Positions 1 through 51,953 are shown, numbered from the stretch's first letter. The stretch: DNA of 64,000 nt from a virus (IMGVR_UViG_3300045988_007243); one strand, 5' to 3'. Notes: a model not told the origin generated them from the sequence alone. Numbers and translations: made by a program.

Positions 1-665
1 AGAAGGATGGTGAGGATATCCCTAGTGCCAATTCTGCAACTTACACAAAACAGTCAGTAGCACCTTCTGACGCTGGTTCATACACTTGTGTTGTATCTGG
101 AGAGGGTGGAACAAGTGTTACCTCAGATGCAGCAACAGTTACTGTGAACGCACTACCTGTGATTACCAAGCAACCTTCTAATCAGACTATTAATGAAGGT
201 GGAAACATCAACTTAGCAGTTACTGCAACAGGTGCGACAGGTTACCAGTGGAAGAAAGATGGCTCTGACATTCCTTCAGCGACAAACGCTACCTATAGCA
301 AGTCTGGTGCTCTGCCAGCAGATGCAGGTTCATACACTTGCGTTGTAACAGGTGCAGGTGGTTCTGTTACTTCTAGCCCTGCAACAGTTACTGTGAATGC
401 ACTTCCGGTAATCACTCAGCAACCAACCAATCAAGAAATCACTGAAGGTGAGACCTTAACACTGAATGTTGTGGCAACAGGTGCGACAGGTTATCAGTGG
501 AAGAAAGGTGAGGAAGTCATCCCAGATGCAACTGCTGCAACTTACACCAAAGAAGGTGCAACCGCTGCTGATGCAGGAAGCTACACCTGTGTAGTGACTG
601 GCGCAGGTGGCTCTGTAACATCTAATGCAGCAACAGTTACAGTTAACCCAGCAGGGGAGGCGTAA
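1..665 (+). CDS. Ig-like domain repeat protein, 5'-truncated at window edge (structural or decoration protein candidate)
   Basis: Open frame runs from nt 3 with no stop to TAA at 663-665; 83-aa units repeat with the conserved GSYTCVV Ig-type motif; track ORF 144..665 is the same frame from an internal GTG. Confidence 0.6.
   Translation, partial: KDGEDIPSANSATYTKQSVAPSDAGSYTCVVSGEGGTSVTSDAATVTVNALPVITKQPSNQTINEGGNINLAVTATGATGYQWKKDGSDIPSATNATYSKSGALPADAGSYTCVVTGAGGSVTSSPATVTVNALPVITQQPTNQEITEGETLTLNVVATGATGYQWKKGEEVIPDATAATYTKEGATAADAGSYTCVVTGAGGSVTSNAATVTVNPAGEA
147..644 (+). repeat. Tandem 249-bp in-frame coding repeat (2 full copies, a third partial copy upstream)
   Basis: NALPVIT...GSYTCVVTGAGGSVTS...ATVTV unit repeated at protein and DNA level. 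Confidence 0.7.
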
Positions 666-1129
666 TGCAACTCTCAAGAAAAGGTTTAGATGCTATTAAG
701 TTCTTCGAAGGTCTGAAGTTAGAGGCTTACGAAGACTCTGCCGGAATCCCAACAATCGGGTATGGGACAATCCGTATTGACGGGAAACCTGTTAAGATGG
801 GTATGAAAATCACGGCTGAACAAGCTGAACAGTATCTTCTCGCAGATGTTGAAAAGTTTGTTGCAGCAGTGAACAAAGCTATCAAGGTTCCAACTTCTCA
901 GAATGAGTTCGATGCACTTGTAAGTGAAACATACAACATCGGTATCACAGCTATGCAGGATTCTACATTTATCAAGCGCCACAATGCTGGTAATAAGGTA
1001 GGTTGTGCAGAAGCTATGCAGTGGTGGAACAAGATTACAGTCAAAGGTAAGAAGGTCACTTCAAACGGCTTGAAAAACAGACGTAGAATGGAAGCTGACA
1101 TTTATCTTGACAGTGTATATCCAAAGTAA
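665..1129 (+). CDS. Endolysin, GH24 T4-type lysozyme
   Basis: N-terminal FFEGLKLEAYEDSAGIPTIGYGT matches the T4 lysozyme catalytic Glu/Asp region ([22 protein letters not shown]); start ATG overlaps upstream stop (TAATG). Confidence 0.85.
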   Translation: MQLSRKGLDAIKFFEGLKLEAYEDSAGIPTIGYGTIRIDGKPVKMGMKITAEQAEQYLLADVEKFVAAVNKAIKVPTSQNEFDALVSETYNIGITAMQDSTFIKRHNAGNKVGCAEAMQWWNKITVKGKKVTSNGLKNRRRMEADIYLDSVYPK

Positions 1130-3261: not shown

Positions 3262-3480
3262 ATGAAAAAACTAACTACAGTTGAAGATTACTACAAACTG
3301 TCCCTGTTAGAACAGTATCGCAGAAGCCAGAATATCAGAAAATGCTATGGTAAACACGCCGAAGGTGATTTTTACCATTGCTATGATGCAGATTTAAAAG
3401 GCGTAACACCTAGAGGGAAAGTTCTGCAAAGATTTGTTGACCTTGAATGGAACAAACGATTGAGAGGGGTTGGAAAATGA
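3262..3480 (+). CDS. Hypothetical protein
   Basis: ORF, 72 aa. Confidence 0.4.
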   Translation: MKKLTTVEDYYKLSLLEQYRRSQNIRKCYGKHAEGDFYHCYDADLKGVTPRGKVLQRFVDLEWNKRLRGVGK

Positions 3481-4056: not shown

Positions 4057-4281
4057 ATGATTAAGACACCTGTACCAATTTTTGGATTTCCTTCTATAGA
4101 AGAGTTTAAAGTTTATCTTGACAAAAACTTCTACAATGAGCAGCCTGTTACTTTACTGAAGAGTGACTTATCAGAGCTTCTTGATATGGTTATCAAGGCA
4201 ACTTCTGAGAAGGAACCTGAGCAGAAAGCTGAGAAGAAGACTAGTAAGAAATCCGATAAGAAGACTGAAAAGTCTGAGTAA
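4057..4281 (+). CDS. Hypothetical protein with Lys/Glu-rich C-terminus
   Basis: ORF, 74 aa. Confidence 0.4.
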   Translation: MIKTPVPIFGFPSIEEFKVYLDKNFYNEQPVTLLKSDLSELLDMVIKATSEKEPEQKAEKKTSKKSDKKTEKSE

Positions 4282-5772: not shown

Positions 5773-5783
5773 AATATCTTAAG

Positions 5784-5808
5784 AGCCTCCTTAATTGGGG
5801 GCTTTTTT
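5784..5808 (+). terminator. Rho-independent terminator closing the plus-strand early operon
   Basis: AGCCTCC-TTAATT-GGGGGCT hairpin followed by TTTTTT. Confidence 0.65.
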
Positions 5809-5809
5809 A

Positions 5810-7436
5810 ATTTTTATAAAATTTTATCGGTTGTCCCAACCTCTGGGTCACCATCATATGTGAATAAAATATCTATCCTTCTTAGCAACCTTCTTAATCT
5901 TACTCTCTATATAGTTATATAGTACTATATAGTATCTTAGTAACTATCTAGTGGTCTTAATAGCCCTCTGTATAACCCTTCTAACAAGCCCTCTAACAAA
6001 CCTTCTTAACAACCTATACAATCACCTTAACCATCTCTCTACACCTTCTTAGAAGCCCCTATACACCTCTTAATCTCTATGTCAGCTATGATACCCTCTA
6101 TAGGTGTTCACTAGGAAATACTAAGCCTCTATATAGACTGTTTTAACAAACTTAACAGGAATATCTTTACAGACCTTATCTCACAAGGTCTAACACGGTA
6201 CTAACAAGGTATCTTATAAGCCTGTTTATGCCTGTATTTTTAAAAGACTGTATAGGTAATTATTCAGAATTTTAAAATTTTTATAAAATAGGACTATCAA
6301 GTCATTTTTTAGGGTCTTTGAAGGGACTCAAAAATATCTGATTAGGGTGTATATCTGCTTGGTAGCCCTTAACAGCTCCCTTACAAGTACTTTGCAAAAT
6401 TTTAAAATATCCTTAACAATCTCTTAACAGTTCTCACATCTTCTTAACAACTCTTCAAAGGTCTTAACAGATTCTTAACAGAACTAACAAGGCTGTAACA
6501 GTTTCTTAACAGTTGATACATAGGCTTTACAGAATCTTAACAGATGACTAATAAGAGCTAACAGGGATTGGTAGATGATTCGGATGAAGCATCCTCATAA
6601 CAATACCAATTAGTTAATTTTAAAGAGTTATTTTGTTAAGATAATTAACAAGTTTCTAACAAGTATTTAATCTTTTTAACAAGCTATTAACATGGTCACT
6701 ACTCTTTTCTTATCGTTCCCTCTCCCTCTTAGTGATTCTCTAAACATACCTCTTAAAAGCTCTCTATAGCTCTTTATAAGCCCTTTTAAGCCTCTTCCTA
6801 GTAATTACACCCCAACTGTACAGACACCTTTTTATAGAGCTTTACAGGAGCTTTTAAGGCTATGTCAAAGACTCTTACAAGGCTTTTACGTGGTTTTAAC
6901 AGAGATTTAACAAGGGGCTAACAAGTTGCTAACAAGTGCCTTAAAAGCATAACTATGTAGGGATTGTTAAGAATTTGTTAAGAAAATGTTAAGGGGGCTA
7001 GCATTTACGTAACTTTATAGCTTCTTTTACGTAACTTTGAAGCAACTTTATAGCCCCTATAACATACTTTTAAGACACTAACAATAGGATTCGATAGATT
7101 CCTATCTCATAGCCCTTTTTAGTAGTTCACAAGAATACTAACGAGATAATAAAGCTTATAACCTTATAAGATTCTTTTAAGCCTCTATAAAGCCCTGTAA
7201 AGAGCTTTTTAGGGTGAGTTAATGCAATCCCTTAAGTTATATTGATAAGGCTGTTATAGAGCTTTATAGAGCGTTTTAGTGGTTGCCCTTCCCTTTCGGG
7301 TTATGGGCTTATATTTAAGTTGATTTGATAAGAGGTTATAGAGTAAACTATAGAGTTATTGCTTTTAAGGTATGGGATAGATTCTGGAAAGGAAAGGGAA
7401 AGGATTGTATAGGGATTCGATAAGACGTAAAAAAGC
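5810..7436. repeat. ORF-free G-poor region with dense short iterons (CTTAACAG/CTAACAAG, CTCTATAG/CTTTATAG, CTTTTAAG families)
   Basis: No ORF of 60 aa or more in any frame over about 1.6 kb between convergent transcription units; more than 30 TAACA(A/G) words, locally phased about 10-11 bp (6400-6560); TTTACGTAACTTT twice near 7000. Confidence 0.6.
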
Positions 7437-7491
7437 CCCTATGAGAAGGAGCTTTGAAGGTATCTGGGGCTATTTAGCCCCGTTGCGTCGA
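7437..7491 (-). terminator. Terminator region at the end of the minus-strand early array
   Basis: GGGGCTAAATAGCCCC hairpin and a GGGGC followed by a U-run on the minus strand, just past the stop of 7492..7740. Confidence 0.45.
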
Positions 7492-7740
7492 TTAGTTGTA
7501 ACCTTGTTTATTGTAGTACAGTGAGATAATCAAGTCACCCCAGTAATGATAGTGATGCTCGTCGTTTAATGCCTCTTTTACAGCGTCTTTCCAGAAGTCA
7601 TCAGTAGGGTTATAATCTGGGATAACTTGCTTGATAACTGTCTTCACTAATGAAAAACACTCATCAGTTCCACCAATATCAAATTTAACGTCCAGAGTAT
7701 AACAGCCATAAGCATTGACAGTTGCGCGGATAGTTGCCAT
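7492..7740 (-). CDS. Hypothetical early protein
   Basis: ORF preceded by the conserved leader AACTAGGAGATTCAAAAATG. Confidence 0.55.
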   Translation of the reverse strand: MATIRATVNAYGCYTLDVKFDIGGTDECFSLVKTVIKQVIPDYNPTDDFWKDAVKEALNDEHHYHYWGDLIISLYYNKQGYN

Positions 7741-7834
7741 TTTTGAATCTCCTAGTTTAAGGACTTTACTTAGTGGGGAAGGCCATTCCCTCCCCGTTGA
7801 TGAGTAATTTACTGCATGTTGGCGTATGTTGCAA
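7741..7834 (-). promoter_or_regulatory. Early promoter-leader cassette, family A (TTGCAA-N17-TAAATT, leader stem-loop GGGGAGGGAATGGCCTTCCCC, RBS)
   Basis: Sigma70-like -35/-10 with 17-bp spacer; the -10 overlaps the stop of the upstream gene; near-identical copies precede four other genes. Confidence 0.6.
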
Positions 7835-8072
7835 GCCTTTTTTCGTTGTATTTTGTAAGAATCTCACAAGATAAAACATCGTAATTTGTAATAGCGTTGC
7901 CTTTGTCGAGGTCAAAGAATCCAAACGCTTTACCGTCTTTGAATCCTACAACTTCATAAGACTCTTTGATGATTTCACCATTGAACAAATCGCTTTCAAT
8001 GCGGTGTAATAATGCTACGTTTTCTTTGTCGGTTGCGATTTGTAAAAGTGTGGTCAATTCTACGTTTTCCAT
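7809..8072 (-). CDS. Hypothetical early protein
   Basis: ORF with conserved leader. Confidence 0.55.
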   Translation of the reverse strand: MENVELTTLLQIATDKENVALLHRIESDLFNGEIIKESYEVVGFKDGKAFGFFDLDKGNAITNYDVLSCEILTKYNEKRLATYANMQ

Positions 8073-8163
8073 CTTGATAACTCCTAGTTTAAGGACTTTA
8101 CTTAGTAGGGAGGTTATCCCTCCCGTTGATTAGTAATTTACTTGTTTTGATATCTGATTGCAA
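8073..8163 (-). promoter_or_regulatory. Early promoter-leader cassette, family A
   Basis: TTGCAA-N17-TAAATT then GGGAGGGATAACCTCCC stem-loop and RBS; an additional TTGACA-N17-TAACTT candidate lies further upstream near 8240-8270. Confidence 0.55.
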
Positions 8164-8292
8164 GCAATTTTTTAAGTTTATCTATAAAGAATCTTTTAAG
8201 TTAATCCCTTTTAGATAAACCCCCTCGAACAAAGTTACCAATGTCAAGGGGCATTGTCAACACTTTTTTAAAAGTTTTTTGTAAGTTATTGA

Positions 8293-8634
8293 TTAACTGA
8301 TGAATATTTTTTCAGGTTTTACATAGCTGATACGCTGACTTTTTAGCAAGTCATCCCAGATTATTGCCGCAATATGAGAATAACCAGACTCACGCAAGAG
8401 CTTCATTGCTTTACATCTCGTTTCAAATCTGGTTGCGTAGTACTCACTATTCAAAACAGTTTTCTTCCCTTCGTTATCTGTATGGATAATCTGCATTACT
8501 TGAAAGGGGCTGACATCCTCGCCTTTGTTCCATTGCTCAAAGTATTTTAGGCACTGCATAGGTGACATCTTATCGCTTACTTGAGTTGACCAAGATGCGC
8601 CAGCTTTATCGGTAATTACGGTTACATAAGCCAT
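8293..8634 (-). CDS. Hypothetical early protein
   Basis: ORF with conserved leader, 113 aa. Confidence 0.55.
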   Translation of the reverse strand: MAYVTVITDKAGASWSTQVSDKMSPMQCLKYFEQWNKGEDVSPFQVMQIIHTDNEGKKTVLNSEYYATRFETRCKAMKLLRESGYSHIAAIIWDDLLKSQRISYVKPEKIFIS

Positions 8635-8726
8635 TTTTGAATCTCCAGTTTAGGATTTTATTTAGTGGGGAAGGTCATCCCCTCCCCGTTGATTGACAAT
8701 TTACAGATTTTTATCAGGCTTGTCTA
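8635..8726 (-). promoter_or_regulatory. Early promoter-leader cassette, family A
   Basis: TAGACA-N17-TAAATT, leader stem-loop GGGGAGGGGATGACCTTCCCC, RBS GGAGAT. Confidence 0.55.
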
Positions 8727-8957
8727 GTCTTTTTCAATGATAATTTCATATTGACCGTCAACACTGTCGAAATAGATTCCGTCGTCATCTTCTGTCTTAA
8801 AGTAACATTGTATATCATCACTGGCGGGATAGTCTTGCCTTGCTATCTGGCAAACTTGAATAGCATTTTCTTTACTTCCTGTAAACTCTTCAAGCCCTTT
8901 AAAGTCACATGAATGGCCATTACAAATTGAGAGGATGAGATAAACGGTTGTAAGCAT
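8724..8957 (-). CDS. Hypothetical early protein with hydrophobic N-terminus
   Basis: ORF, 77 aa; upstream AGCCCCTTGTAGGGGCT hairpin plus RBS. Confidence 0.45.
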   Translation of the reverse strand: MLTTVYLILSICNGHSCDFKGLEEFTGSKENAIQVCQIARQDYPASDDIQCYFKTEDDDGIYFDSVDGQYEIIIEKD

Positions 8958-9023
8958 GATTTAAGCCCTCTAAAAGCCCCTACAAGGGGCTGATTAGTGT
9001 TTATAAGGTGATTGCATAGGTTT

Positions 9024-9566
9024 TTAGAAAAAGCTCTTTAAATCCTCTTCTGCAATGTTTCCTGTCAGTGTGTCCATGATGTCACAAAAAACCTGAATAC
9101 TGTCGGACTGTTGAACACTTTTAGCAAGAAGTTCCAGAGACTTATCAAGATAGTTTAAATTTGGGTTATCCAGTGAAGGAAGACAAAAAGGCGAAAACAT
9201 AGCATTAAATTCAGTGATGTAAACCTTTTTAATCCAATTTAAATCGAAATATTCTGTAAAACTTGCCACACTCGACATATTATCACAAGAATAATCATCA
9301 TTTAACTCATCTTCTGGAATATCAAGTTCCAAGATGACAATGTTTTGAGTTTTCATCTGAAAAGCTGCGGTGATAGTGGCATTGCCCAGAGCTTGTTGTA
9401 TACCTTCAGATGCTATCTCTTCCGCATCGTCGCCATAGATTTTATTTTCTGGATAAACGTAAAAATTGCCGTCCATATCCGAACAATTCCATGCACCTGA
9501 TGGCTTATCACCGTTATTAATCAGGTTGAGGAAATTTTCTTGAGTAGTTCCGTGATAACATTTCAT
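9024..9566 (-). CDS. Candidate ADP-ribosyltransferase (H-Y-E class, Arr/diphtheria-toxin-like N-terminal YHGT motif)
   Basis: N-terminus MKCYHGTT...GAW...GNFYVYPENKIY resembles the NAD-binding (F)YHGT...W.GFY signature of Arr, diphtheria toxin and exotoxin A; acidic stretch ILELDIPEDE could carry the catalytic Glu; motif-level only. Confidence 0.35.
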   Translation of the reverse strand: MKCYHGTTQENFLNLINNGDKPSGAWNCSDMDGNFYVYPENKIYGDDAEEIASEGIQQALGNATITAAFQMKTQNIVILELDIPEDELNDDYSCDNMSSVASFTEYFDLNWIKKVYITEFNAMFSPFCLPSLDNPNLNYLDKSLELLAKSVQQSDSIQVFCDIMDTLTGNIAEEDLKSFF

Positions 9567-9652
9567 TTTTAGAATCTCCAGTTTAGGATTTAGTGGTAAA
9601 GCTCTTTATCTGAGGCTTAAGTTATCAACTTTTAAGCCCCTTGTAAAGTACT
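9567..9652 (-). promoter_or_regulatory. Early promoter-leader cassette, family B (TTTACA-N17-TAACTT overlapping inverted repeat GGGGCTTA-N13-TAAGCC)
   Basis: Conserved about 70-nt element shared with cassettes at 10365-10450, 11622-11710 and 12005-12090. Confidence 0.55.
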
Positions 9653-9856
9653 TTATTTGTTATTTTTGACAACTTTTAAAACTGCAAGATAGCCTAAGCA
9701 ATAAGAATCACCGAAGAGAGTCCTACCCATGAAAGAATCCTCTTTGATATCCTTTGCAGTGACAGTTTTTTCTACGCCGTGGGAAAGGACTATATCACCA
9801 ACTTTGATATCTTTGATGTGTGTAGTTTCAATGGTTAAACCATTAATAATAGCCAT
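9653..9856 (-). CDS. Hypothetical early protein
   Basis: ORF with family A leader, 67 aa. Confidence 0.5.
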   Translation of the reverse strand: MAIINGLTIETTHIKDIKVGDIVLSHGVEKTVTAKDIKEDSFMGRTLFGDSYCLGYLAVLKVVKNNK

Positions 9857-9949
9857 TTTCAGAATCTCCAGTTTAGGACTTTATTTAGTGGGGAAGGTCA
9901 TTCCCTCCCCGTTGATGTGTAATTTAGACTATCTAAAAATCAGTGTCAA
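9857..9949 (-). promoter_or_regulatory. Early promoter-leader cassette, family A
   Basis: TTGACA-N17-TAAATT, GGGGAGGGAATGACCTTCCCC stem-loop, RBS GGAGAT. Confidence 0.6.
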
Positions 9950-9959
9950 CAAAAATTTT

Positions 9960-10364
9960 TTATAGTTCTGCATAAATTGCATCGCAGATATTACGGAAAT
10001 CGTGATTTGCCAAATTACGCTGCAACCAAGTGGCGAAAAAGTCAGCGATTGCAAAGTTAGCATCATACTCGACAGATAACCACACTTTAACAGCAAATCG
10101 GAACATTTTCAAATCTAACTCTTTATTCATTACCTTAGATTTGCCTAACATGTCGGCCATTTCATGTTGTGCACCGTCTAGCGTGATACCTGCTGCAACG
10201 TCAGTCAATGAGTTTTTTACGCTTTCAACGTCTAAGATAACACTTTGAATCTTCCCAATAATGTTTTGCAGTGTTTTATCTGGTGCTGATGACGTGATAA
10301 CATTAATCCGGTTAACGGTCAAACGTGCTTTTAAAATTGATAATTCACGGTTATTAATAGCCAT
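9960..10364 (-). CDS. Hypothetical early protein
   Basis: Start set at the ATG after RBS GGAGAA (MAINN...); track start 10379 is a TTG inside the conserved leader. Confidence 0.5.
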   Translation of the reverse strand: MAINNRELSILKARLTVNRINVITSSAPDKTLQNIIGKIQSVILDVESVKNSLTDVAAGITLDGAQHEMADMLGKSKVMNKELDLKMFRFAVKVWLSVEYDANFAIADFFATWLQRNLANHDFRNICDAIYAEL

Positions 10365-10450
10365 TTTTAAGTTCTCCAATTTAGGATTTAGTGGTAAAGC
10401 TCTTTATCTGGGGCTTACTTTATCGAACTATAAGCCCCTTGTAAAGTACT
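10365..10450 (-). promoter_or_regulatory. Early promoter-leader cassette, family B
   Basis: TTTACA-N17-TAAAGT with GGGGCTTATAGTTCGATAAAGTAAGCCCC inverted repeat spanning spacer and -10. Confidence 0.55.
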
Positions 10451-10723
10451 TTACATTAAATGCAGTTTTTTGCCTTTTACTATAATGTAACTCGATGCGC
10501 TATTGCTTTGCACATCTTGATAAATTCTGCGTAAACGTCCTTCGTAGTATACTTTCCAACTGGTTGGAATCTTTTTCCCGTATCCTGTAGCAGTTTTTTG
10601 GAGTCCTGCAACTTGCCAATTTAAGATGTGTTGCTCAGCTTGTAAATCATCAAAGTGCATCACACCATTCACATAGTGACGCAGGGTTACGTTTAAAGTG
10701 CGACCGTTGTTAGTAGTATACAT
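10451..10723 (-). CDS. Hypothetical early protein
   Basis: ORF, 90 aa, preceded by RBS-only leader (co-transcribed with the upstream small ORF). Confidence 0.5.
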   Translation of the reverse strand: MYTTNNGRTLNVTLRHYVNGVMHFDDLQAEQHILNWQVAGLQKTATGYGKKIPTSWKVYYEGRLRRIYQDVQSNSASSYIIVKGKKLHLM

Positions 10724-10749
10724 TTTCAGAATCTCCTAGTTTAAGGATT

Positions 10750-10908
10750 TTATTTTGACAGTTCACTAATTAAGACATCAAAGATTATATCATTATCTGC
10801 TACAGTTGCAACACCAGTGATATAATCAATTTCTAAGATAACAACAACTTTCGTACATAAACCGTCATCTATATCATTCCAGACAACTTTATCACCTGCA
10901 CAAAACAT
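10750..10908 (-). CDS. Small hypothetical early protein (52 aa, below the track cutoff)
   Basis: ATG directly after a family A leader and RBS; translation MFCAGDKVVWNDIDDGLCTKVV... read from the sequence. Confidence 0.4.
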   Translation of the reverse strand: MFCAGDKVVWNDIDDGLCTKVVVILEIDYITGVATVADNDIIFDVLISELSK

Positions 10909-11002
10909 TTTTGAATCTCCTAGTTTAAGGACTTTATTTAGTGGGGAAGGTCATTCCCTCCCCGTTGATGTGTAATTTAATCTATCTAAAAACCAGTGTC
11001 AA
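10909..11002 (-). promoter_or_regulatory. Early promoter-leader cassette, family A
   Basis: TTGACA-N17-TAAATT, GGGGAGGGAATGACCTTCCCC stem-loop, RBS. Confidence 0.6.
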
Positions 11003-11331
11003 CAGTTTTGTTTTCGTTTGCTCAATTCTTGAACAATTACAGCGTAGTAGTCTTTTAAGTCACTGACATTTAAAGCATTTATCAGAGAATTATAATCATC
11101 AACTAACTGAAAATTATCTTTGAAGATGTCACTTATCTGATAGGTTTTCGCTTTATATCTGAAGCTCATCTCTAGCCGCTTTATTTGCTCATCACTGAGG
11201 CGCCCTAGAAAGCTTTCTACAAGGTTATTACTAACCTGCTGCGTAATTGCCTTACTTGCTAGATTATAGGCTTTATATGCCTTATATAGCGCGAAAATGG
11301 CAATGATTGCAGTGATACCAGTCATTAACAT
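10999..11331 (-). CDS. Hypothetical membrane protein
   Basis: ORF, 110 aa with N-terminal hydrophobic helix ITAIIAIFALY. Confidence 0.5.
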   Translation of the reverse strand: MLMTGITAIIAIFALYKAYKAYNLASKAITQQVSNNLVESFLGRLSDEQIKRLEMSFRYKAKTYQISDIFKDNFQLVDDYNSLINALNVSDLKDYYAVIVQELSKRKQNC

Positions 11332-11621
11332 GGTGTTTCCTCTTTACGTGATACTTTGCCATTTACAGTTATCTCATAGGATTCTAATAAATCGCTTTTA
11401 GACTTTACAGGACTTTTAAAAGTATTATCGTATATATTAACTTGTAATACAGGTTTTTTATACTCCCTGCAACTGTTCCATAAGCAAATCACTACACGAC
11501 GACCTTTTATTTTGCCGTGTAACCATTCCATAACATCATGCCTATTCCTTGATGTCTCGATAAAATCAATTTTGTTGAGTAATTTGCTCAAATTTTCACG
11601 CACTTGATTTGATAATTTCAT
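11325..11621 (-). CDS. Hypothetical early protein
   Basis: ORF with conserved leader, 98 aa. Confidence 0.5.
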   Translation of the reverse strand: MKLSNQVRENLSKLLNKIDFIETSRNRHDVMEWLHGKIKGRRVVICLWNSCREYKKPVLQVNIYDNTFKSPVKSKSDLLESYEITVNGKVSRKEETPC

Positions 11622-11710
11622 TTTAGAATCTCCTAGTTTAAGGTCTTTATTTGATAAAGCTCTTTATCTGGGGCTTAAGGTATCAGCTTTTAAGCCCCCT
11701 GTAAAGTACT
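11622..11710 (-). promoter_or_regulatory. Early promoter-leader cassette, family B
   Basis: Same conserved element as 9567-9652. Confidence 0.55.
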
Positions 11711-12004
11711 TTATTTGTTAATTTTCAGCTTTGCATAACTTCTCATTGTACGAATGGGGGATGTTAATGCTACGCGTCTAATGTATGCCTTTTTCGTGTA
11801 TACATTTGTCTTCCCGATAGTGTTTACACATGTAAAAAGGTTTATCGGTGAATTTTTTAACTTCAACTGTTTATCAACCTTCACGCCCCACCTTACAGCA
11901 GATTGTTTTCCGTTGTCAACCACTTTCCCGCATAACTTTTTAGCCATAACGCGAGCGTCATCACGAGTCTTTGCAGTAATTACAACGTTTTTGATAATAG
12001 CCAT
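11711..12004 (-). CDS. Hypothetical early protein
   Basis: Start set at the ATG after RBS GGAGAA (MAIIKN...); track start 12019 is in the leader. Confidence 0.5.
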   Translation of the reverse strand: MAIIKNVVITAKTRDDARVMAKKLCGKVVDNGKQSAVRWGVKVDKQLKLKNSPINLFTCVNTIGKTNVYTKKAYIRRVALTSPIRTMRSYAKLKINK

Positions 12005-12090
12005 TTTTAAGTTCTCCAATTTAGGATTGAGTGGTAAAGCTCTTTATCTGGGGCTTACTTTATCGAACTATAAGCCCCTTGTAAAGTACT
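12005..12090 (-). promoter_or_regulatory. Early promoter-leader cassette, family B
   Basis: TTTACA-N17-TAAAGT with GGGGCTTA-N13-TAAGCCCC inverted repeat, immediately after the stop of the upstream gene. Confidence 0.55.
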
Positions 12091-12474
12091 TTATTTGTTA
12101 ATTTTGAAGATAGTTACATAACCATCGCTGCCGATGATTTGTGATGCTCCAGCTTTTTCTACTTGATAGCCCATATTTTCAAGATGGTAAACAGCATCAT
12201 CATAACCATATGCACCGCCCTGATAACGTCTCTTATCACATCTTACTAATACCTTTCCACGTCCTGCCAGTGCATTTAGTACGGCTTTTTCACTTGAAAG
12301 TGTACCATCTAACATGGTTGCCGTGTAATGGTTGATTCTATTCCCGTTTACATCATACTTAAAATTGAATGCGTGAACAACGATAATGTTACCTTTAAAA
12401 TTTTCATCAAGTGACTTCTCCAGTGCGTTGCGAAAGTTGTCTTTGTTGATGAATTTAGGTGCACGATATGCCAT
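12091..12474 (-). CDS. Hypothetical early protein
   Basis: Start set at ATG (MAYRAPKF...) after RBS AGGAGATTCAAAA; track start 12540 lies in the leader. Confidence 0.5.
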   Translation of the reverse strand: MAYRAPKFINKDNFRNALEKSLDENFKGNIIVVHAFNFKYDVNGNRINHYTATMLDGTLSSEKAVLNALAGRGKVLVRCDKRRYQGGAYGYDDAVYHLENMGYQVEKAGASQIIGSDGYVTIFKINK

Positions 12475-12540
12475 TTTTGAATCTCCTAGTTTAAGGTTGT
12501 TGAGCTTGTCGCCCCGTCTGATGCAAATATTAGATAACAC
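12475..12540 (-). promoter_or_regulatory. Promoter (TTGACT-N17-TAATAT) and leader of the first array gene
   Basis: Sigma70-like hexamers read on the minus strand about 35-60 nt upstream of the ATG. Confidence 0.5.
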
Positions 12541-12983
12541 AGTTCAAAGAGTCAAGAAAATTTTTAAAAATATTTTTTGCAAAATTGTAATGAAACGGGT
12601 GCGCGCGACTACCACAAAACAGAACTACAATCAAGAATTATTTTTCAATCCGCTACAAATTTTTCTGTTGACTTTTATTTTCAGATGTGGTAGCCTTGTG
12701 AGAAATGGCGACAGTCCCACCTACCCCCACCTACCTGCACAATTCTAAAATGATTTTTCTTGCCCGACCTGATTTTTCTCTGCACGTTTTGAAAATGAAA
12801 AAACCCTTTGGAGATTACCTGCACAGTTTGAAAATGAATTTTCTCTTTGGAGTTCAAAATTTTCTCTATAGATTCCTCTACAGAACTCTACCTGCACAAA
12901 TCTGAAATGAAAAAGCCCTCCTTACCTGAAAAATTTACCAGATAAGAAAGGCTTAGTCTATTGTGAATATACTACGAAGTTTC
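12541..12983. repeat. Intergenic region with four copies of an about 30-bp motif (minus sense TTTTCATTTTCAAA-N-TGTGCAGGTA) and a GGTAGGTGGG direct repeat
   Basis: ACCTGCACA occurs 3 times plus one variant on the plus strand at 45-70 bp spacing; no ORF. Confidence 0.5.
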
Positions 12984-13769
12984 TTAGTTCTTTGCGTCTA
13001 AGAAGGTAAGTTCTGGTGAAGAGAAGATTAACTCAATATCCTCATCAGTTCTTGCATAGATATAAGCATCTGCATCACTGCCAAATGTTACTGCAATTCT
13101 GTGATTGCTCTTCGACAGGTGGGTAACTAGAGCGTTACTCAGAGACATCTTCTCAACCGGAGGGTTACTTTGATGTATCTTACCTTTTCTTCGTCTGAAG
13201 AGGGTAACTGCATCATTAGTGAACACTACTACACCTGCAAAGTATTCTGGTTCACAGTAGTTCTTCCAACCTGAGAGTAACTTGTGGTACATCTCTCCTT
13301 CATAGACATATAGATAAACATCTACACTCTTCATCACCTGATTGATGATAACTGTGACGGCTTGAGGGTCAAGTCCACCGATACCTGCACCAATCATAGG
13401 TAAACCAACTTTCTTCAACTGGTTAACTTCACAGTATCTGTTAAGCTGTTTCAAAGATGACTCTAAAGCACTGTATCGGGCATCTTTACCAGTATGAAGT
13501 TGGGTGTAAAGGTTAGCTATACGGCCTTGTTTTAAACGTGCTACAGAGAAATTACCTAGTAAATTTTCACAGGGTTTGTGACGAATGCCACCTGCAAACA
13601 GGTAAACTTCTGTGTCAGTATCATACACTTTTGGATAACGCTTAGAAATAGTTGCTGCAATACCTGCACCCATGAAATTCATACAGTTGCAACCATGACC
13701 AATGATATCAAATTTGCCTTTATCAAATGCGTCAAAGATATCACCTTTGATGATTTTTACAATACCCAT
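12984..13769 (-). CDS. Macro domain protein (TARG1/DarG-like ADP-ribose-processing domain) with extra C-terminal domain
   Basis: GDIFD...DIIGHGCNCMNFMGAGIA...VGLPMIGAGIGGLD matches the TARG1-type macro domain pattern (GDLF...CISEDCRMGAGIA...PRIGCGLDRL). Confidence 0.55.
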   Translation of the reverse strand: MGIVKIIKGDIFDAFDKGKFDIIGHGCNCMNFMGAGIAATISKRYPKVYDTDTEVYLFAGGIRHKPCENLLGNFSVARLKQGRIANLYTQLHTGKDARYSALESSLKQLNRYCEVNQLKKVGLPMIGAGIGGLDPQAVTVIINQVMKSVDVYLYVYEGEMYHKLLSGWKNYCEPEYFAGVVVFTNDAVTLFRRRKGKIHQSNPPVEKMSLSNALVTHLSKSNHRIAVTFGSDADAYIYARTDEDIELIFSSPELTFLDAKN

Positions 13770-17039: not shown

Positions 17040-17100
17040 TGGTTCCCCTGTTTAGTTTATCGTGACATCAATTATACAGCACTCTGCACAAAATACAAAT

Positions 17101-17123
17101 AAAAAAGGCCGCCGAAGCAGCCT
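17101..17123 (-). terminator. Rho-independent terminator after rIIB
   Basis: GGCTGCTTCGGCGGCC hairpin plus U-run on the minus strand. Confidence 0.55.
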
Positions 17124-32117: not shown

Positions 32118-34352
32118 CTAAACACCACAACCCTCGCAATAAGCATCTTGCAGTGCAGATTTACCTACACCAATGCGACTGTTAAGGTAGTACATGGTTT
32201 TCATACCTACCGAGTTGGCATAAATCATGTACTTCAAAGCTTGAGCCAATGATACCTTCTTAGACTTTGCATAGTCAACATAGAAATCTGAAGAGATAGC
32301 TTGACCAGTGAACTTTTGAACAATTGCATAACAATCAATCAGGTCAAAGGTGTCAATACCCCAAGCAATTTCATATACATACTTCAACTCTTCATAATCT
32401 GGAACAATAAACAGTACGTTACCAGTTGCAGACTTTTTAGTTAAAATAAAGTCACGAATTGGGTACAAGCCGTTTGTCGTATTAGTTGCTAGTGAAGAAC
32501 TCTCATTAGGCATGTAAGCTTCTAATACAGAGTTTCGGATTCCACCATTCTCTTTGATACGTTGTGCTAAGTCATCCCAATCATATCGTAGTTTCGCATC
32601 ATGCTTTTCATCAATCTTCTTGTTAGCTGTCTTTGGAGGAACCCACCCTTCAGGATACTTAGTGAACTGCATATACTCAGGTACACCACGTTCTTTAGCA
32701 AGTCTCAAAGAAGCTTCGTGTAAGTAGTAAGAGTGCATTTCAGCAAGCTCATGAAGCTTCGTCTTACCTGCTCTTGAAGAATAGTTCACGTAGTTCTTCG
32801 CAAGGTAATGAGCCACATTTGTAAGGCCAATCCCAACAGAACGACGCTTCTGAACATGGTTACGCATCGACGGATACGGATAATCCATAAGGTCAATAAC
32901 GGAGTCAACCATTGCAAGAGCATAATAAGCAACGTCAGCGTATTCATCTTCTGAAATTCTCCCTGCAACCAAACTAGCTAGGAAGCAAAGAGCTACCTCA
33001 CCATCCTCTTTCACAGCATCATCTCTGTAAAGGTCTGTCTCTTTCTCAAAGCCGTACACTGGCAACACAATTTCCATACAAAGATTTGACATCTTCAAAG
33101 GCTCTTTAAATGGTGTATGTGTGTTTGCATTATTCGTGAAGAATGGGTACACACGACCTGTAGCATAACGCTGTTGAATAAACAGCTTAGCAATTTCACG
33201 AGCCTTTACCCGTCTGTGCTTAACACCTGAATGTACTGCGTGACCAACTGCCATAGCAAACTCATCAGCAGATGCTGTGTAGAACATGTCATAGAGTTTT
33301 GGTGCATCTTTGTAAGAGAATAGCAACCAGTCTGTATCATATTGAACACACTGCCAGAAATAATCATTTGTACCGAATGAGTAGTCCATCTCGTTAATAC
33401 GTTTAGAAGGAACCGTTGTAGGGTGCTTCAAACGCAGTAAATCTTCAATCTGCGGGTCTAGAGCAGTGTAGAAGTTATTAGCTGAACCACCACGACTCTT
33501 CTGTTTGTTTGCCTCTACAGATGAGCGTACAAGCTTGTAATAAGGTAGTTTACCCATGTGCTCAATAGTATTTTGACGGATACCATCACCAATGGTGCGA
33601 GTTTCCATCAGCATCCCAATACCAGCTTGCTTTGTAGTCATATCATAAGCAACCTTTGCAGCAATACCGAGAGACTCAGCAGTATCATTTGCCTTAATCA
33701 AACAGCATGACGCATAACCTGATTTAGTTGCTCTTAACCCGTTTAAATATGGCGTAGGGGCGTTAATCTTCAGGTCAGATAGGTAAGTGTACAGCTTGAT
33801 AACATCTTGCAGTCTACGGTGCTTTGGTTGCTTCTCAAAGGCTTTCATAGCCATACCCATGAACATAAATTGTGGTGACTCAAAAAGTCTTCCCGTTTTA
33901 ATATCACGGATACCATACTTGTCTCTGAACTGTTTCAAGACTGCATAACCGTAAGAGATATCTTTTGAGTGCACAATGTAACCTTGCAGGTATTCAAGCT
34001 CTTCCTGTGAGTAGTCCATCTTCTCCCAAAGTCCTGCTCTCTCCATATTTTTAACGAAGGTAACCAGCGTAGGAACCTTAGTAAAGCCTCCAAAGGCTTC
34101 TTTGTAGATAATCCCCAGAAGTAGCCGTCCAGCCATATCTGAGTACTCTTGAGTTTGTTTATCAACACAAACATCAATCATGGCTTGGTGCATCTCTTTT
34201 GTAGTGCAACCCTCATAGACACGTTTCATAGCTTCCATAGTGACTTCTGACCAGATAATTCCACGTTTATCTGCCCATGATGCCCACTTATTCAGTCTTT
34301 CTGGGTCAAAGCTTACTACTGTACCATTTGATTTTTTAATTGTCTTAATCAT
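32118..34352 (-). CDS. nrdA: Ribonucleotide reductase class Ia alpha subunit
   Basis: 744 aa; N-terminal ATP-cone-like region and C-terminal CEGCGV tail characteristic of NrdA. Confidence 0.85.
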   Translation of the reverse strand: MIKTIKKSNGTVVSFDPERLNKWASWADKRGIIWSEVTMEAMKRVYEGCTTKEMHQAMIDVCVDKQTQEYSDMAGRLLLGIIYKEAFGGFTKVPTLVTFVKNMERAGLWEKMDYSQEELEYLQGYIVHSKDISYGYAVLKQFRDKYGIRDIKTGRLFESPQFMFMGMAMKAFEKQPKHRRLQDVIKLYTYLSDLKINAPTPYLNGLRATKSGYASCCLIKANDTAESLGIAAKVAYDMTTKQAGIGMLMETRTIGDGIRQNTIEHMGKLPYYKLVRSSVEANKQKSRGGSANNFYTALDPQIEDLLRLKHPTTVPSKRINEMDYSFGTNDYFWQCVQYDTDWLLFSYKDAPKLYDMFYTASADEFAMAVGHAVHSGVKHRRVKAREIAKLFIQQRYATGRVYPFFTNNANTHTPFKEPLKMSNLCMEIVLPVYGFEKETDLYRDDAVKEDGEVALCFLASLVAGRISEDEYADVAYYALAMVDSVIDLMDYPYPSMRNHVQKRRSVGIGLTNVAHYLAKNYVNYSSRAGKTKLHELAEMHSYYLHEASLRLAKERGVPEYMQFTKYPEGWVPPKTANKKIDEKHDAKLRYDWDDLAQRIKENGGIRNSVLEAYMPNESSSLATNTTNGLYPIRDFILTKKSATGNVLFIVPDYEELKYVYEIAWGIDTFDLIDCYAIVQKFTGQAISSDFYVDYAKSKKVSLAQALKYMIYANSVGMKTMYYLNSRIGVGKSALQDAYCEGCGV

Positions 34353-51448: not shown

Positions 51449-51661
51449 ATGGCTCTTAAAAAGTTACATCCCAGAAGCGGTTATGGTAAGATAATTGACG
51501 ATACAGACGGCTTTACAGTCTTTACAGTTATCTGTCAAGATGATTCACAGATTGAAAAGGCTCTTGATGATTATCTTAACAATGAACGTGAAAAGGTTAG
51601 AGCTACAAACATAGATTCATTGATTGACACTTCACGCAAACGGAAGAAGAAAGATGAATGA
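51449..51661 (+). CDS. Hypothetical protein
   Basis: ORF, 70 aa. Confidence 0.4.
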   Translation: MALKKLHPRSGYGKIIDDTDGFTVFTVICQDDSQIEKALDDYLNNEREKVRATNIDSLIDTSRKRKKKDE

Positions 51662-51953
51662 GGTTTTTGACCCTTATGCCCCACAAGATGATTGGGAGGC
51701 TGATAGAGAGGCTGAAATGGAGAGTTATGTTTGTCCAATGGATGTAGACGAAATGAGAGACTTCGTTGCACATCGTTTTAAGAGAGAGATTAAATCCAGA
51801 GGTCTTTCTCAAGAGCAAGTTGCTAAAATTTGTGGTATCTCTCAGGCTCGTGTATCCAACATAATCAATCTCACTGGTAATGTCTCCCTTGAGTTTATGT
51901 TGGAAGTATGTGAAAAATTTGGTGTTAATTTTAATTTAAGGTTGGCAGATTAA
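51654..51953 (+). CDS. Helix-turn-helix transcriptional regulator (XRE-like)
   Basis: LSQEQVAKICGISQARVSNIIN HTH motif; start set at the ATG overlapping the upstream stop. Confidence 0.5.
   Translation: MNEVFDPYAPQDDWEADREAEMESYVCPMDVDEMRDFVAHRFKREIKSRGLSQEQVAKICGISQARVSNIINLTGNVSLEFMLEVCEKFGVNFNLRLAD

What the first reader, a model, noticed from the sequence alone, without database searches (positions are those of the whole stretch)
12541..12983. Four phased copies of a 30-bp motif and a G-rich direct repeat between the macro gene and the early array
Read in the minus-strand sense the region contains TTTTTCATTTCAGATTTGTGCAGGTAG, AAAATTCATTTTCAAACTGTGCAGGTAAT, TTTTTTCATTTTCAAAACGTGCAGAGA and AAAATCATTTTAGAATTGTGCAGGTAGG, followed by GGTAGGTGGGGGTAGGTGGG. 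The spacing and conservation suggest repeated binding sites for a regulator or a non-sigma70 promoter class upstream of the first early promoter.
Basis: seen in the sequence. Interest (0 to 1): 0.45.

Follow-up and report, generated by a model that had tools for sequence, protein, structure and literature searches.

The report
Conserved direct-repeat array in Felix O1-like phages
Between two gene blocks of a Felix O1-type phage lies a single array of four same-direction DNA repeats whose 11 core bases stay unchanged across the whole phage subfamily; it looks like a docking site for an unknown DNA-binding protein, perhaps a replication origin, and not a new class of promoter.

Summary
Four same-orientation copies of TCATTT-N7-GTGCA lie on the minus strand at 12910-12892, 12837-12819, 12798-12780 and 12753-12735. 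A 2 x 10-bp G-rich repeat follows at 12735-12716. The copies are not evenly phased: spacing is 73/39/45 bp.

The window is a Felixounavirus. The array lies between the macro-domain gene terminator and the first sigma-70 promoter of the terminal early-gene array.

It is the only such array in the 86-kb genome. It is present at the same position in every Ounavirinae genus examined and in one lineage with no close GenBank relative. All 44 core positions are invariant in eight genomes, against 48% of the other array positions.

It is non-coding and has no conserved RNA structure. It has no -35/-10 elements and no consensus DnaA boxes in this phage. It is not the genome end: the terminal repeat maps to about 6400-6998, some 6 kb away.

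Best reading: an iteron-like array of binding sites for an unidentified sequence-specific protein. The most likely role is a replication origin (confidence 0.33). An operator or insulator for the early module is the closest rival. The promoter-class reading is not supported. The element appears undescribed. Interest is moderate.

The parts
12984..13769 (-). Macro-domain ('phosphatase', T4 Tk.4-like) gene. It is the last gene of the rIIA-to-macro block and the conserved upstream neighbour of the array.
   Evidence: ORF of 261 aa. Annotated as phosphatase or macro-domain protein in relatives. Synteny holds even in the divergent lineage L045.
12913..12954 (-). Intrinsic terminator hairpin of the macro gene. 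Its T-tail runs directly into copy 1. The loop and 3' arm contain a decayed 'copy 0' (TTTTTCAGGTAAGG).
   Evidence: Terminator scan: 17 pairs, then a TTTCATTTCA tail. It is the only helix well supported in the consensus fold. Repeat family D3.
12892..12918 (-). Copy 1: CTTTTTCATTTCAGATTTGTGCAG (core 12910-12892).
   Evidence: 40.4 bits.
12853..12872 (-). Probable decayed repeat unit between copies 1 and 2 (AGAGAAAATTTTGAACTCC). It accounts for the double-length 73-bp spacing.
   Evidence: Repeat family D5. Relatives of the phiEa21-4 type have even 37/37/39 spacing. Inference.
12819..12845 (-). Copy 2: GAAAATTCATTTTCAAACTGTGCAG (core 12837-12819).
   Evidence: 36.8 bits.
12780..12806 (-). Copy 3: GTTTTTTCATTTTCAAAACGTGCAG (core 12798-12780).
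   Evidence: 32.5 bits.
12735..12761 (-). Copy 4: GAAAAATCATTTTAGAATTGTGCAG (core 12753-12735). This unit is the most similar to Erwinia phage phiEa21-4.
   Evidence: 33.9 bits. The distant BLAST match to Erwinia phages covers only 12736-12838.
12716..12735 (-). G-rich direct repeat, 2 x GGTAGGTGGG (CCCACCTACC on the + strand). It is a slippage-type duplication of the 3' flank of copy 4.
   Evidence: family D7. One copy in the VpaE1 type and variant forms elsewhere.
12677..12729 (-). The 53-bp allele-variable segment between copy 4 and the conserved AAAAGTCAA block. In this window it is G-rich then mixed. In the other allele it is a C-rich homopyrimidine tract, which gives a G-quadruplex motif on the + strand.
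   Evidence: The two alleles have identical length, and neither direct nor inverted alignment is significant. A canonical G4 motif is found on the antisense strand in 8 of 13 representatives and not in this window.
12668..12696 (+). Candidate antisense promoter pointing into the array: TTGACT-17-TGgTAGCCT. The TTGACT (AAAAGTCAA on the minus strand) is conserved in the Felixouna-, Moogle- and Susp-type genomes.
   Evidence: Read from the sequence. The block is conserved in the alignment. It falls below the tool's 9-of-12 threshold. phiEa21-4 has TTGAC(G/C)-18-TATACT in the same orientation. Inference only.
12606..12634 (-). Weak upstream promoter-like site: TTGATT-17-TAGTCG (TGn upstream, no T at -7).
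   Evidence: Read from the sequence. The position is conserved in the alignment. Not reported by the scan.
12556..12595 (.). Least stable 40-mer of the region. It is AT-rich, is a candidate unwinding element, and also sits where an UP element of the early promoter would be.
   Evidence: Nearest-neighbour dG -41.2 kcal/mol, rank 194 of 63,960 40-mers in the window.
12527..12555 (-). First early sigma-70 promoter, TTGACT-17-TAATAT.
   Evidence: Conserved in the alignment.
12091..12474 (-). First gene of the terminal early array (127 aa, no Pfam match). The first gene differs between relatives.
   Evidence: Barry, Moogle and KhF1 have other first genes.

Best explanation
The four repeats are a cis-acting DNA element: an iteron-like array of binding sites for one sequence-specific DNA-binding protein that has not been identified. 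Each site is asymmetric and bipartite. TCATTT and GTGCA lie about 12-13 bp apart, centre to centre, across an A/T-rich spacer. This geometry suits a monomer, or two tandem domains, contacting two successive major grooves. All sites point the same way, as plasmid iterons do.

Occupied sites would form a nucleoprotein complex at the inner boundary of the terminal early-gene module. I commit to replication initiation as the most likely role. The bound array would act together with the adjacent strand-asymmetric G/C tract and the easily melted AT-rich stretch. That stretch carries host-type promoters, which could supply transcriptional activation or an R-loop primer. Together these would open the duplex for the phage primase-helicase.

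Shown here: the array exists, is unique in the genome, is syntenic, is under strong purifying selection, and is not coding, not structured RNA, not a promoter class and not the genome end. Inferred: that a protein binds it, and that the complex is an origin.
For: (1) Four exact matches to the core, against 0.07 expected by chance.
(2) The array is unique. The position-weight-matrix scan of the window and of the whole 86,277-bp Sl26 genome gives only these four copies above 32 bits. There is no second locus.
(3) It is present at the same place, downstream of the macro-gene terminator and upstream of the first early promoter, in Felixouna-, Moogle-, Susp- and Kolesnikvirus. It is also present in lineage L045, which shares only about 40-58% amino-acid identity in local tblastx matches.
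(4) In a motif-independent alignment of eight genomes, 44 of 44 core positions are invariant, against 63 of 131 other array positions (Fisher p = 6e-12). At Erwinia-phage distance the array is the only part of the intergenic region that BLAST still detects.
(5) The seven bases between the two conserved blocks (the T/C after TCATTT plus six) vary but stay almost entirely A/T-rich. Core orientation is constant.
(6) Copy number and spacing vary by amounts that are not multiples of 3 (73/39/45, 75/41/45, 37/37/39, 75/45). This excludes coding.
(7) No conserved RNA structure: the covariation term is +0.96, and one pair of 33 is compensatory. No Rfam family is matched.
(8) Origin-like neighbours. 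A G/C-skewed tract follows immediately. After it comes about 150 bp of AT-rich DNA that includes one of the 0.3% least stable 40-mers of the window, plus promoters on both strands.
(9) By established knowledge, the layout resembles lambda ori (four repeats, then an AT-rich region). The position resembles that of the T7 primary origin, at the junction after the early region.
Against: No recognisable initiator gene is nearby or anywhere in the annotation of the closest relative. The neighbours are a macro-domain protein and variable small ORFs.

The replication genes lie 25-35 kb away.

Unit spacing of 37-45 bp is unlike the roughly 22-bp phasing of classical iterons. Adjacent sites fall on different helical faces.

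The AT-rich minimum is about 140 bp from the array, and an UP element of the early promoter would explain it equally well.

The G/C tract differs in strand and sequence between alleles, and its length varies between lineages (49-59 bp).

There are no consensus DnaA boxes in this phage.

There are no experimental data on Felix O1 origins. By established knowledge, large virulent phages such as T4 and T7 often use promoter-type origins without iterons.
Confidence: 0.33

Rival explanations
1. Operator or insulator array. A phage-encoded (or host) regulator binds the four sites and controls transcription at the boundary between the rIIA-to-macro block and the early module. It could shut off or boost the first early promoter(s), block read-through past the macro terminator, or control the candidate antisense promoter that fires into the array.
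For: The array lies between a strong terminator and the first early promoter. A conserved TTGACT on the opposite strand points into it. Asymmetric operators bound by monomers are known (P1 C1; established knowledge). The window encodes a Cro/C1-type HTH protein at 51654-51953 (HTH_3, E = 4e-11). A motif-like sequence overlaps the -35 and spacer of a sigma-70 promoter after rIIB, and this is conserved in Felix and Moogle types.
Against: The sites lie 180-370 bp upstream of the strong early promoter. That is too far for classical repression or class I/II activation. Each of the other early genes has its own promoter without the motif, so the array cannot control the module as a whole. HTH_3 proteins usually bind palindromes.
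Confidence: 0.25
2. DNA-entry boundary or DnaA-binding array, like the T5 injection-stop region. The array marks the inner edge of the genome segment that enters first. It would pause entry, or anchor the DNA, through bound host protein, possibly DnaA.
For: In Pr103Blw, whose ends are annotated, the array lies 6.71-6.87 kb from the right end. That is 7.6-7.8% of the genome, and the segment between array and end holds only the small early genes. The T5 first-step segment is 7.9% and ends at a conserved repeat region with DnaA boxes, including TTATGCACA (bioRxiv 10.1101/866236). In phiEa21-4 all four cores read (C/T)TATGCAC(A/G), one mismatch from TTWTNCACA. In L045 the array abuts TTAACA repeats of the kind that fill the terminal repeat here.
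Against: In this window the box reads ACCTGCACA, with 3 mismatches, and no consensus DnaA box lies in the region. DnaA does not explain the equally conserved TCATTT half. Two-step entry has never been reported for Felix O1-type phages. The terminal repeat is about 0.6 kb, not 10 kb. Which end enters first is unknown. The 7.7% figure may be coincidence.
Confidence: 0.08
3. RNA-level element. The repeats act in a transcript, for example as repeated single-stranded binding motifs for an RNA-binding protein. The transcript could be an antisense RNA from the candidate + strand promoter or read-through RNA from the macro operon.
For: Candidate antisense promoters point into the array in this window and in phiEa21-4. 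The repeated motif would be present in such an RNA.
Against: There is no conserved structure or covariation and no Rfam hit. On the + strand the hairpin is followed by AGTCTATTGTG, which I read as a weak tail, and the terminator scan reports no + strand terminator there. The antisense promoter is weak by consensus and its -10 is not conserved between alleles. The sense-strand copies lie downstream of a strong terminator.
Confidence: 0.08
4. A phage-specific (non-sigma70) promoter class present as four tandem promoters.
For: The copies sit just after terminators (copy 1 here, and the weak copy after rIIB), where restart promoters are often found.
Against: The motif is confined to one locus in the genome. 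No conserved -10-like element follows it. The rIIB site has its own TATAAT that the array copies lack. No phage RNA polymerase or sigma factor is annotated (PMC3185647).
Confidence: 0.04
5. Packaging or terminase recognition site, or genome end.
For: Several public contigs and the KhF1 record break inside this region.
Against: The breaks fall in the polypurine/G4 tract. One contig runs into Nextera adapter sequence there and another is chimeric, so they look like sequencing artefacts. The annotated 581-bp terminal repeats of Pr103Blw map to window positions about 6400-6998. UAB_Phi87 has a 608-bp terminal repeat shown by Bal31 digestion and run-off sequencing (PMC4837284).
Confidence: 0.03

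Closest known systems
Iteron-type origins (lambda ori with four O-protein repeats plus an AT-rich region; plasmid RepA/pi iterons; T4 oriE iterons)
   Same: Three to five same-orientation repeats of an 18-bp core at a single locus, flanked by A/T tracts and next to an AT-rich, easily melted segment. Strongly conserved while surrounding DNA drifts.
   Different: Units are 37-45 bp long, not about 22 bp. No cognate initiator gene is in cis or recognisable anywhere. Lambda iterons are palindromic, whereas these are asymmetric. There is no sequence similarity to any plasmid in PLSDB. Origin activity is untested.
T5 injection-stop region (Repeat Region 3 of the left terminal repeat, with paired DnaA boxes)
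   Same: A conserved non-coding repeat region at the inner edge of a terminal block of small early genes, at a similar fractional distance from the end (7.6-7.8% against 7.9%). There are DnaA-box-like cores in the Erwinia-phage version.
   Different: The T5 region is 1.2 kb of nested inverted repeats and palindromes inside a 10-kb terminal repeat. This one is 0.2 kb of direct repeats, 6 kb from a 0.6-kb terminal repeat. The DnaA boxes are not conserved in Felixounavirus. Two-step entry is not known for this group.
T7 primary origin (promoters plus an AT-rich region just after the early genes) and T4 oriF/oriG (promoter plus unwinding element)
   Same: Located at the junction of an early transcription unit. 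Promoters lie beside an AT-rich stretch. The replisome is of the same general type (Toprim plus DnaB-like primase-helicase).
   Different: Those origins have no protein-binding repeat array and rely on transcription alone.
Asymmetric monomer operators (P1 C1) and multi-site regulatory regions (phi29 p4/p6)
   Same: Non-palindromic sites. Several sites cluster between divergent or tandem promoters.
   Different: P1 operators are scattered over the genome and overlap promoters. Here there is one cluster, far from the main promoter.

Membership tests
Iteron-type replication origin | Three or more direct repeats of a 17-22 bp site, all in one orientation, at a single locus | tested here: met
   Four copies (three to five in relatives), all on the minus strand, and unique in the genome.
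Iteron-type replication origin | Regular spacing in helical phase (about 22 bp) | tested here: not met
   Spacing is 73/39/45 bp here and 37/37/39 bp in phiEa21-4.
Iteron-type replication origin | Adjacent AT-rich DNA-unwinding element | tested here: inconclusive
   The least stable 40-mer (12556-12595) is in the top 0.3% of the window. It lies about 140 bp from copy 4 and sits where an UP element of the early promoter would be.
Iteron-type replication origin | Cognate initiator gene in cis or recognisable in the genome | tested here: not met
   No initiator is annotated in the closest relative. Pfam finds nothing in the flanking gene or in 7 further proteins tested from the replication and nucleotide-metabolism region. 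The only hits are the primase-helicase domains and one HTH_3 protein.
Iteron-type replication origin | Supports initiation of replication | not testable with these tools
   Needs marker-frequency analysis, 2D gels or an origin-cloning assay.
Promoter class (sigma-70 or phage-specific) | The motif recurs upstream of several transcription units | tested here: not met
   Only this locus scores above 32 bits in the whole genome. The next hits score 18.6 bits in the window (14.0 in Sl26) and 13.6 bits.
Promoter class (sigma-70 or phage-specific) | Conserved -35/-10 (or equivalent) at a fixed distance | tested here: not met
   The scans find none in the array here or in Moogle. Antisense TTGCCA-17-TAAAAT occurs only in the phiEa21-4 type.
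DnaA-box cluster (oriC-like or T5 injection-stop-like) | Several TTWTNCACA boxes with at most 1 mismatch | tested here: not met
   None of the window's 9 consensus boxes lies in 12541-12983, and boxes are not enriched overall. Cores here read ACCTGCACA (3 mismatches). The feature is met only in phiEa21-4, where 4 of 4 cores have 1 mismatch.
Terminal repeat or packaging site | Coincides with the physical genome ends | tested here: not met
   The Pr103Blw annotated terminal repeat maps to window positions about 6400-6998, and the array is 6.7-6.9 kb from the end.
Structured non-coding RNA | Conserved secondary structure with covariation, or an Rfam match | tested here: not met
   The covariation term is +0.96, and only the macro-gene terminator is well supported. 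No Rfam hit comes near a gathering score.
Protein-coding tandem repeat | Reading frame preserved across copies and relatives | tested here: not met
   Spacings differ by 2 bp between genera, and 37 and 73 bp units are not multiples of 3.

The most novel reading that the evidence does not exclude
Felix O1-type phages may deliver or use their genome in two stages, as T5 does. The terminal 6.7 kb (7.6-7.8% of the genome) carries only small early genes, each with its own promoter. On its inner side it is bounded by this conserved repeat array. The array would be the cis-acting stop or anchor signal, bound by a host protein (DnaA-like recognition in the Erwinia phages) or by an early phage protein. 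It would be functionally linked to the TTAACA repeats of the terminal repeat, which lie directly beside the array in lineage L045.
Probability: 0.07. Interest if true: 0.8.

Novelty: new member of a known kind. Interest (0 to 1): 0.45.

Why it matters
Felix O1 and its relatives are widely used for Salmonella and E. coli typing, biocontrol and reporter-phage engineering. Yet neither their replication origin nor the control of their early-to-late programme is known. The Felix O1 genome paper states that temporal regulation is not understood (PMC3185647).

This array is more conserved than the rest of the intergenic DNA examined and the flanking proteins compared. That makes it the best current candidate for an essential cis-acting site. 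It gives a defined 18-bp bait for finding the protein that binds it. It also marks a site that engineers should avoid, or could exploit, when inserting payloads next to the dispensable early genes.

If the array is the origin, it would be the first one defined for the Ounavirinae. If it marks a DNA-entry boundary, it would extend a mechanism known only from T5.

Tried and rejected
(1) Promoter class. Rejected by the genome-wide position-weight-matrix scan and the promoter scans. By eye I also compared the units with sigma-54, sigma-E, sigma-32, sigma-28, the T4 MotA box and the extended -10 element. None fits. The sigma-E-like GAACT...TCAAA in copy 2 has an 18-nt spacer and is absent from the other copies.

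(2) Genome end or pac site. I considered this because KhF1 and three IMG/VR contigs break here. It is rejected: the breaks lie in the G4-forming tract (one adapter read-through, one chimera), and the ends map elsewhere.

(3) Inversion between the two 53-bp alleles. Not supported: z = 0.8 for the reverse-complement alignment.

(4) Structured RNA. Rejected. The apparent helices come from the near-palindrome TGTGCA pairing with itself, and from A-tracts pairing with T-tracts.

(5) Small ORFs annotated here in some records (Sl26, Moogle115, Pr103Blw_00144). Rejected, because the frame is not conserved.

(6) Host binding sites read by eye (CRP, IHF, Fis, Lrp, ArgR). No convincing match. DnaA was tested formally.

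(7) Searches for more distant carriers. The first IMG/VR scan used a wrong gap length and was wasted. The JGI metagenome scan and the bacterial species-genome scan returned only unrelated tandem repeats. Plasmids and E. coli genomes gave nothing.

(8) PhageMaP essentiality data for the Felixounavirus Bas63. The text gives no intergenic result for Bas63, and no supplement is held.

(9) Literature searches for a Felix O1 origin, transcriptome or promoter map found nothing relevant.

Full report
**What the window is**

The region is 93-97% identical to more than 150 Felix O1-type phages; the closest is Salmonella phage Sl26 at 96.6%. Genes around the finding run on the minus strand.

The finding's interval, 12541-12983, is the non-coding gap between two features. 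On one side is the macro-domain ('phosphatase') gene at 12984-13769. On the other is the first gene of a run of small genes, each with its own host-type promoter and terminator.

**Check of the observation**

The degenerate core TCATTTYMRAWHYGTGCAG matches four times without mismatch, at 12892-12910, 12819-12837, 12780-12798 and 12735-12753. Chance gives 0.07 matches, and none of 100 shuffles reaches the observed count. Because the pattern was derived from these copies, that test is partly circular.

The G-rich repeat is two perfect 10-mers at 12716-12735.

'Phased' overstates the case, because spacing is 73, 39 and 45 bp. A decayed unit between copies 1 and 2 (family D5) probably explains the 73 bp. 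A further relic lies in the terminator loop (family D3).

**Anatomy in the direction of transcription**

- Macro gene stop codon.
- A 17-pair terminator hairpin at 12954-12913, whose T-tail runs into copy 1.
- Copies 1 to 4.
- The G-rich repeat, inside a 53-bp segment that varies between alleles.
- A conserved block, AAAAGTCAA...GAAAAATAATTCTTGA.
- A weak promoter-like site, TTGATT-17-TAGTCG.
- A very AT-rich stretch. The 40-mer at 12556-12595 ranks 194th least stable of 63,960 in the window.
- The strong promoter TTGACT-17-TAATAT at 12555-12527.
- The first early gene, with its ATG at 12474.

On the opposite strand, TTGACT-17-TGgTAGCCT (12668-12696) points into the array. This is my reading; it falls below the scan's threshold.

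**Uniqueness**

I built a position weight matrix from twelve copies in three genera. It scores the four copies at 32-40 bits in the window, and at 32-37 bits in the complete 86,277-bp genome of Sl26. Nothing else exceeds 19 bits.

The 18.6-bit hit at 34342 overlaps a start codon. The other hit (13.6 bits with this matrix) lies immediately after the rIIB terminator, near window 17109. With a shorter 28-column matrix it scores 16-24 bits in relatives. There it overlaps the -35 and spacer of an ordinary sigma-70 promoter with a perfect TATAAT, and this arrangement is conserved in both Felix and Moogle types.

A motif used at only one locus cannot be a promoter class. There is also no second array elsewhere.

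**Conservation**

A two-copy pattern scan of IMG/VR, together with the GenBank relatives, shows the array at the same position in five groups:

- Felixounavirus: spacing 73/39/45.
- Mooglevirus: spacing 75/41/45.
- Suspvirus: both of the above spacings.
- Kolesnikvirus (Erwinia phage phiEa21-4): spacing 37/37/39, with the core ending GTGCATAG.
- Si3-like phages: three copies.

It also occurs in L045, an 88-kb IMG/VR contig with no close GenBank relative. Its genes are syntenic with Sl26 at only about 40-58% amino-acid identity in local tblastx matches.

I aligned eight collinear genomes without reference to the motif. All 44 core positions are invariant, against 63 of 131 other positions in the array (Fisher p = 6e-12).

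Against Erwinia phages, BLAST detects only 12736-12838 out of the whole 443 bp.

Across 77 distinct unit sequences, TCATTT and GTGCA are essentially fixed. This is partly by construction of the search pattern. The seven bases between them vary but stay almost entirely A/T-rich. The A/T tract upstream of the core flips polarity between units.

**What the array is not**

*Not coding.* Spacings differ by 2 bp between genera, and 37- and 73-bp units break any reading frame.

*Not structured RNA.* No Rfam family comes near its threshold. The consensus fold supports only the macro-gene terminator. Its covariation term is unfavourable (+0.96), and one pair of 33 is compensatory.

*Not sigma-70 promoters.* The scans find no promoter in the array here or in Moogle. 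Antisense TTGCCA-17-TAAAAT sites appear only in the phiEa21-4 type, where the 37-bp unit happens to place a TTGCCA at the right distance.

*Not a DnaA-box cluster in this phage.* None of the nine consensus boxes in the window lies in the region, and boxes are not enriched overall. The cores read ACCTGCACA. In phiEa21-4, however, all four read (C/T)TATGCAC(A/G), one mismatch from consensus.

*Not the genome end.* Pr103Blw carries annotated 581-bp terminal repeats at 1-581 and 87841-88421 (PMC8303462). These map to window positions about 6400-6998. In that phage the array lies 6.71-6.87 kb from the right end. UAB_Phi87 has a 608-bp terminal repeat shown by Bal31 digestion and run-off sequencing (PMC4837284).

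The public contigs and the KhF1 record that break inside the region all break in the polypurine tract. One runs into Nextera adapter sequence and another is chimeric. This points to sequencing trouble at a G-quadruplex-forming tract, not to a physical end.

*Not shared with host or plasmids.* There is no match in 5,426 E. coli genomes, in PLSDB plasmids or in the bacterial species set. JGI metagenomes returned only unrelated tandem repeats.

**The tract after copy 4**

Two alleles of identical length (53 bp) occur within Felixounavirus. This window has GGTAGGTGGG x 2 followed by mixed sequence. The other allele has CCCCTCTCCCCCTCTTACTCCCCCTCTCCCC on the same strand. An inversion is not supported (z = 0.8).

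The C-rich form gives a canonical G-quadruplex motif on the opposite strand in 8 of 13 representatives. This window has none. The distance from copy 4 to the conserved AAAAGTCAA block is 59 bp in both Felixounavirus alleles. It is 49 bp in the one-copy variant, and 53-55 bp in the Moogle- and Susp-type genomes and the related contigs.

What recurs is a strongly strand-skewed G/C tract beside the array.

**Interpretation**

The features are those of binding sites for a sequence-specific DNA-binding protein:

- direct repeats in one orientation;
- an asymmetric bipartite core spanning about one and a half helical turns across an A/T-rich spacer;
- absolute conservation of the core, with free drift elsewhere;
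- a single locus per genome;
- variable copy number.

I put about 0.75 on that general statement.

For the role I commit to a replication origin at 0.33. The array, the skewed G/C tract, the AT-rich easily melted segment and the flanking promoters resemble iteron origins. The position at the junction after an early region resembles that of the T7 primary origin (established knowledge).

Several things count against an origin. No initiator gene is recognisable. The spacing is not iteron-like. The replication genes are far away. The promoter alone can explain the AT-rich segment.

The closest rival, at 0.25, is an operator or insulator that controls transcription at this boundary. Its weakness is the distance to the main promoter, and the fact that the other early promoters lack the motif.

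A T5-like DNA-entry boundary (0.08) is suggested by three things:

- the position at 7.6-7.8% from the end, compared with 7.9% for T5;
- the DnaA-like cores in Erwinia phages;
- lineage L045, where the array directly abuts TTAACA repeats of the kind that fill the terminal repeat here.

This reading is otherwise unsupported.

**Comparison with what is known, and novelty**

The Felix O1 genome paper lists direct repeats of 24 bp or more, promoters and terminators. It does not mention this array, and it states that temporal regulation is unknown (PMC3185647). My literature searches found no origin, transcript map or description of this element.

I file it as a new member of a known kind: an iteron-like protein-binding repeat array. 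Membership of 'replication origin' is unproven. Two defining features were tested and not met (phased spacing, cognate initiator), one is inconclusive, and one cannot be tested with these tools.

Interest is moderate (0.45). The element is real, deeply conserved and uncharacterised, it sits in a much-used phage group, and clear experiments are available. Its kind is familiar and its function remains inferred.

Noticed in passing
window 5773-7491: A 1.7-kb stretch with no ORF of 50 aa or more lies between convergent gene blocks. It is packed with short repeats. CTTAACA units recur at 11- and 31-bp spacing, and 18 of the window's 79 YTTAACA sites fall within 6005-6993. There are also TTATAGAGCTTTA and TTTACGTAACTTTATAGC families and many inverted pairs. 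The annotated 581-bp terminal repeat of Pr103Blw maps to about 6400-6998, so this stretch holds the physical genome ends. The units resemble the rrn boxA core (CTCTTTAACAA) and the 'DnaA*' boxes described for T5. That resemblance comes from memory and reading, and was not tested.
   Followed up: partly
L045 (IMGVR_UViG_3300045988_063805), locus positions about 600-1030, minus strand: This is an 88-kb phage contig with no close GenBank relative. It is syntenic with Felix O1-type phages at about 40-58% amino-acid identity in local tblastx matches. It carries four scored copies of the motif, plus a fifth degenerate copy by eye, followed directly by about 170 bp of TTAACA-type repeats and then an early promoter. 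In Felixounavirus these two repeat types lie 5 kb apart.
   Followed up: partly
window 17050-17115, minus strand: Just after the rIIB terminator there is a motif-like sequence, TTTTTTATTTGTATTTTGTGCAG. It overlaps the -35 and spacer of a sigma-70 promoter (TTGTAT-16-TATAAT) for the next gene. This is conserved in the Moogle and Michonne types as TTGAAA-16-TATAAT. It may be a real fifth site or a coincidence.
   Followed up: partly
L014, L015/L041, L020/L047 (IMG/VR contigs) and KhF1 record KT184313 (L005, L008): Public assemblies break in the polypurine/G-quadruplex tract next to the array. Two contigs end at ...CCCTCTTACTCC, and one of them continues into Nextera adapter sequence. Another is fused after copy 3 to unrelated GC-rich DNA and is probably chimeric. 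The KhF1 record starts with N-rich low-quality sequence and repeats about 377 bp of this region at both ends. These are assembly artefacts, not genome ends.
   Followed up: yes
window 7500-12500: The intergenic promoter and terminator cassettes of the early array are repeated many times at 80-100% identity in stretches of 26-119 bp. This fits modular shuffling of the small early genes. Relatives differ by whole cassettes; Barry and others, for example, have an extra 207-bp gene right after the first promoter.
   Followed up: no
L049 (phiEa21-4 type) 4137-4202, antisense strand: Inside the Erwinia-phage version of the array, two units read as sigma-70-like promoters on the antisense strand: TTGCCA-17-TAAAAT and TTGCCA-17-GAAAAT. 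This is not so in Felix or Moogle types, where the units are 8 bp longer.
   Followed up: partly
window 51654-51953 (+): A 99-aa Cro/C1-type helix-turn-helix protein (Pfam HTH_3, E = 4e-11) lies in the replication and nucleotide-metabolism block. It is the only recognisable sequence-specific DNA-binding protein among the ten tested, and a candidate to test on the array.
   Followed up: no
G-rich tract next to copy 4 in relatives (L002 about 3440-3460; L004 about 2660-2690): The tract contains octamers one mismatch from the Chi site GCTGGTGG: GCAGGTGG in AYO145A, and GATGGTGG or GGTGGTGG on the other strand in the Moogle and Susp types. This was read by eye. The strand differs between alleles, so it may only reflect base composition.
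   Followed up: no
hit lists: Records named 'Campylobacter phage A132' (MG065664, 70.7 kb) and one 'Staphylococcus' phage match this Felixounavirus region; A132 matches at about 94% identity. They are probably mislabelled or contaminated records.
   Followed up: no
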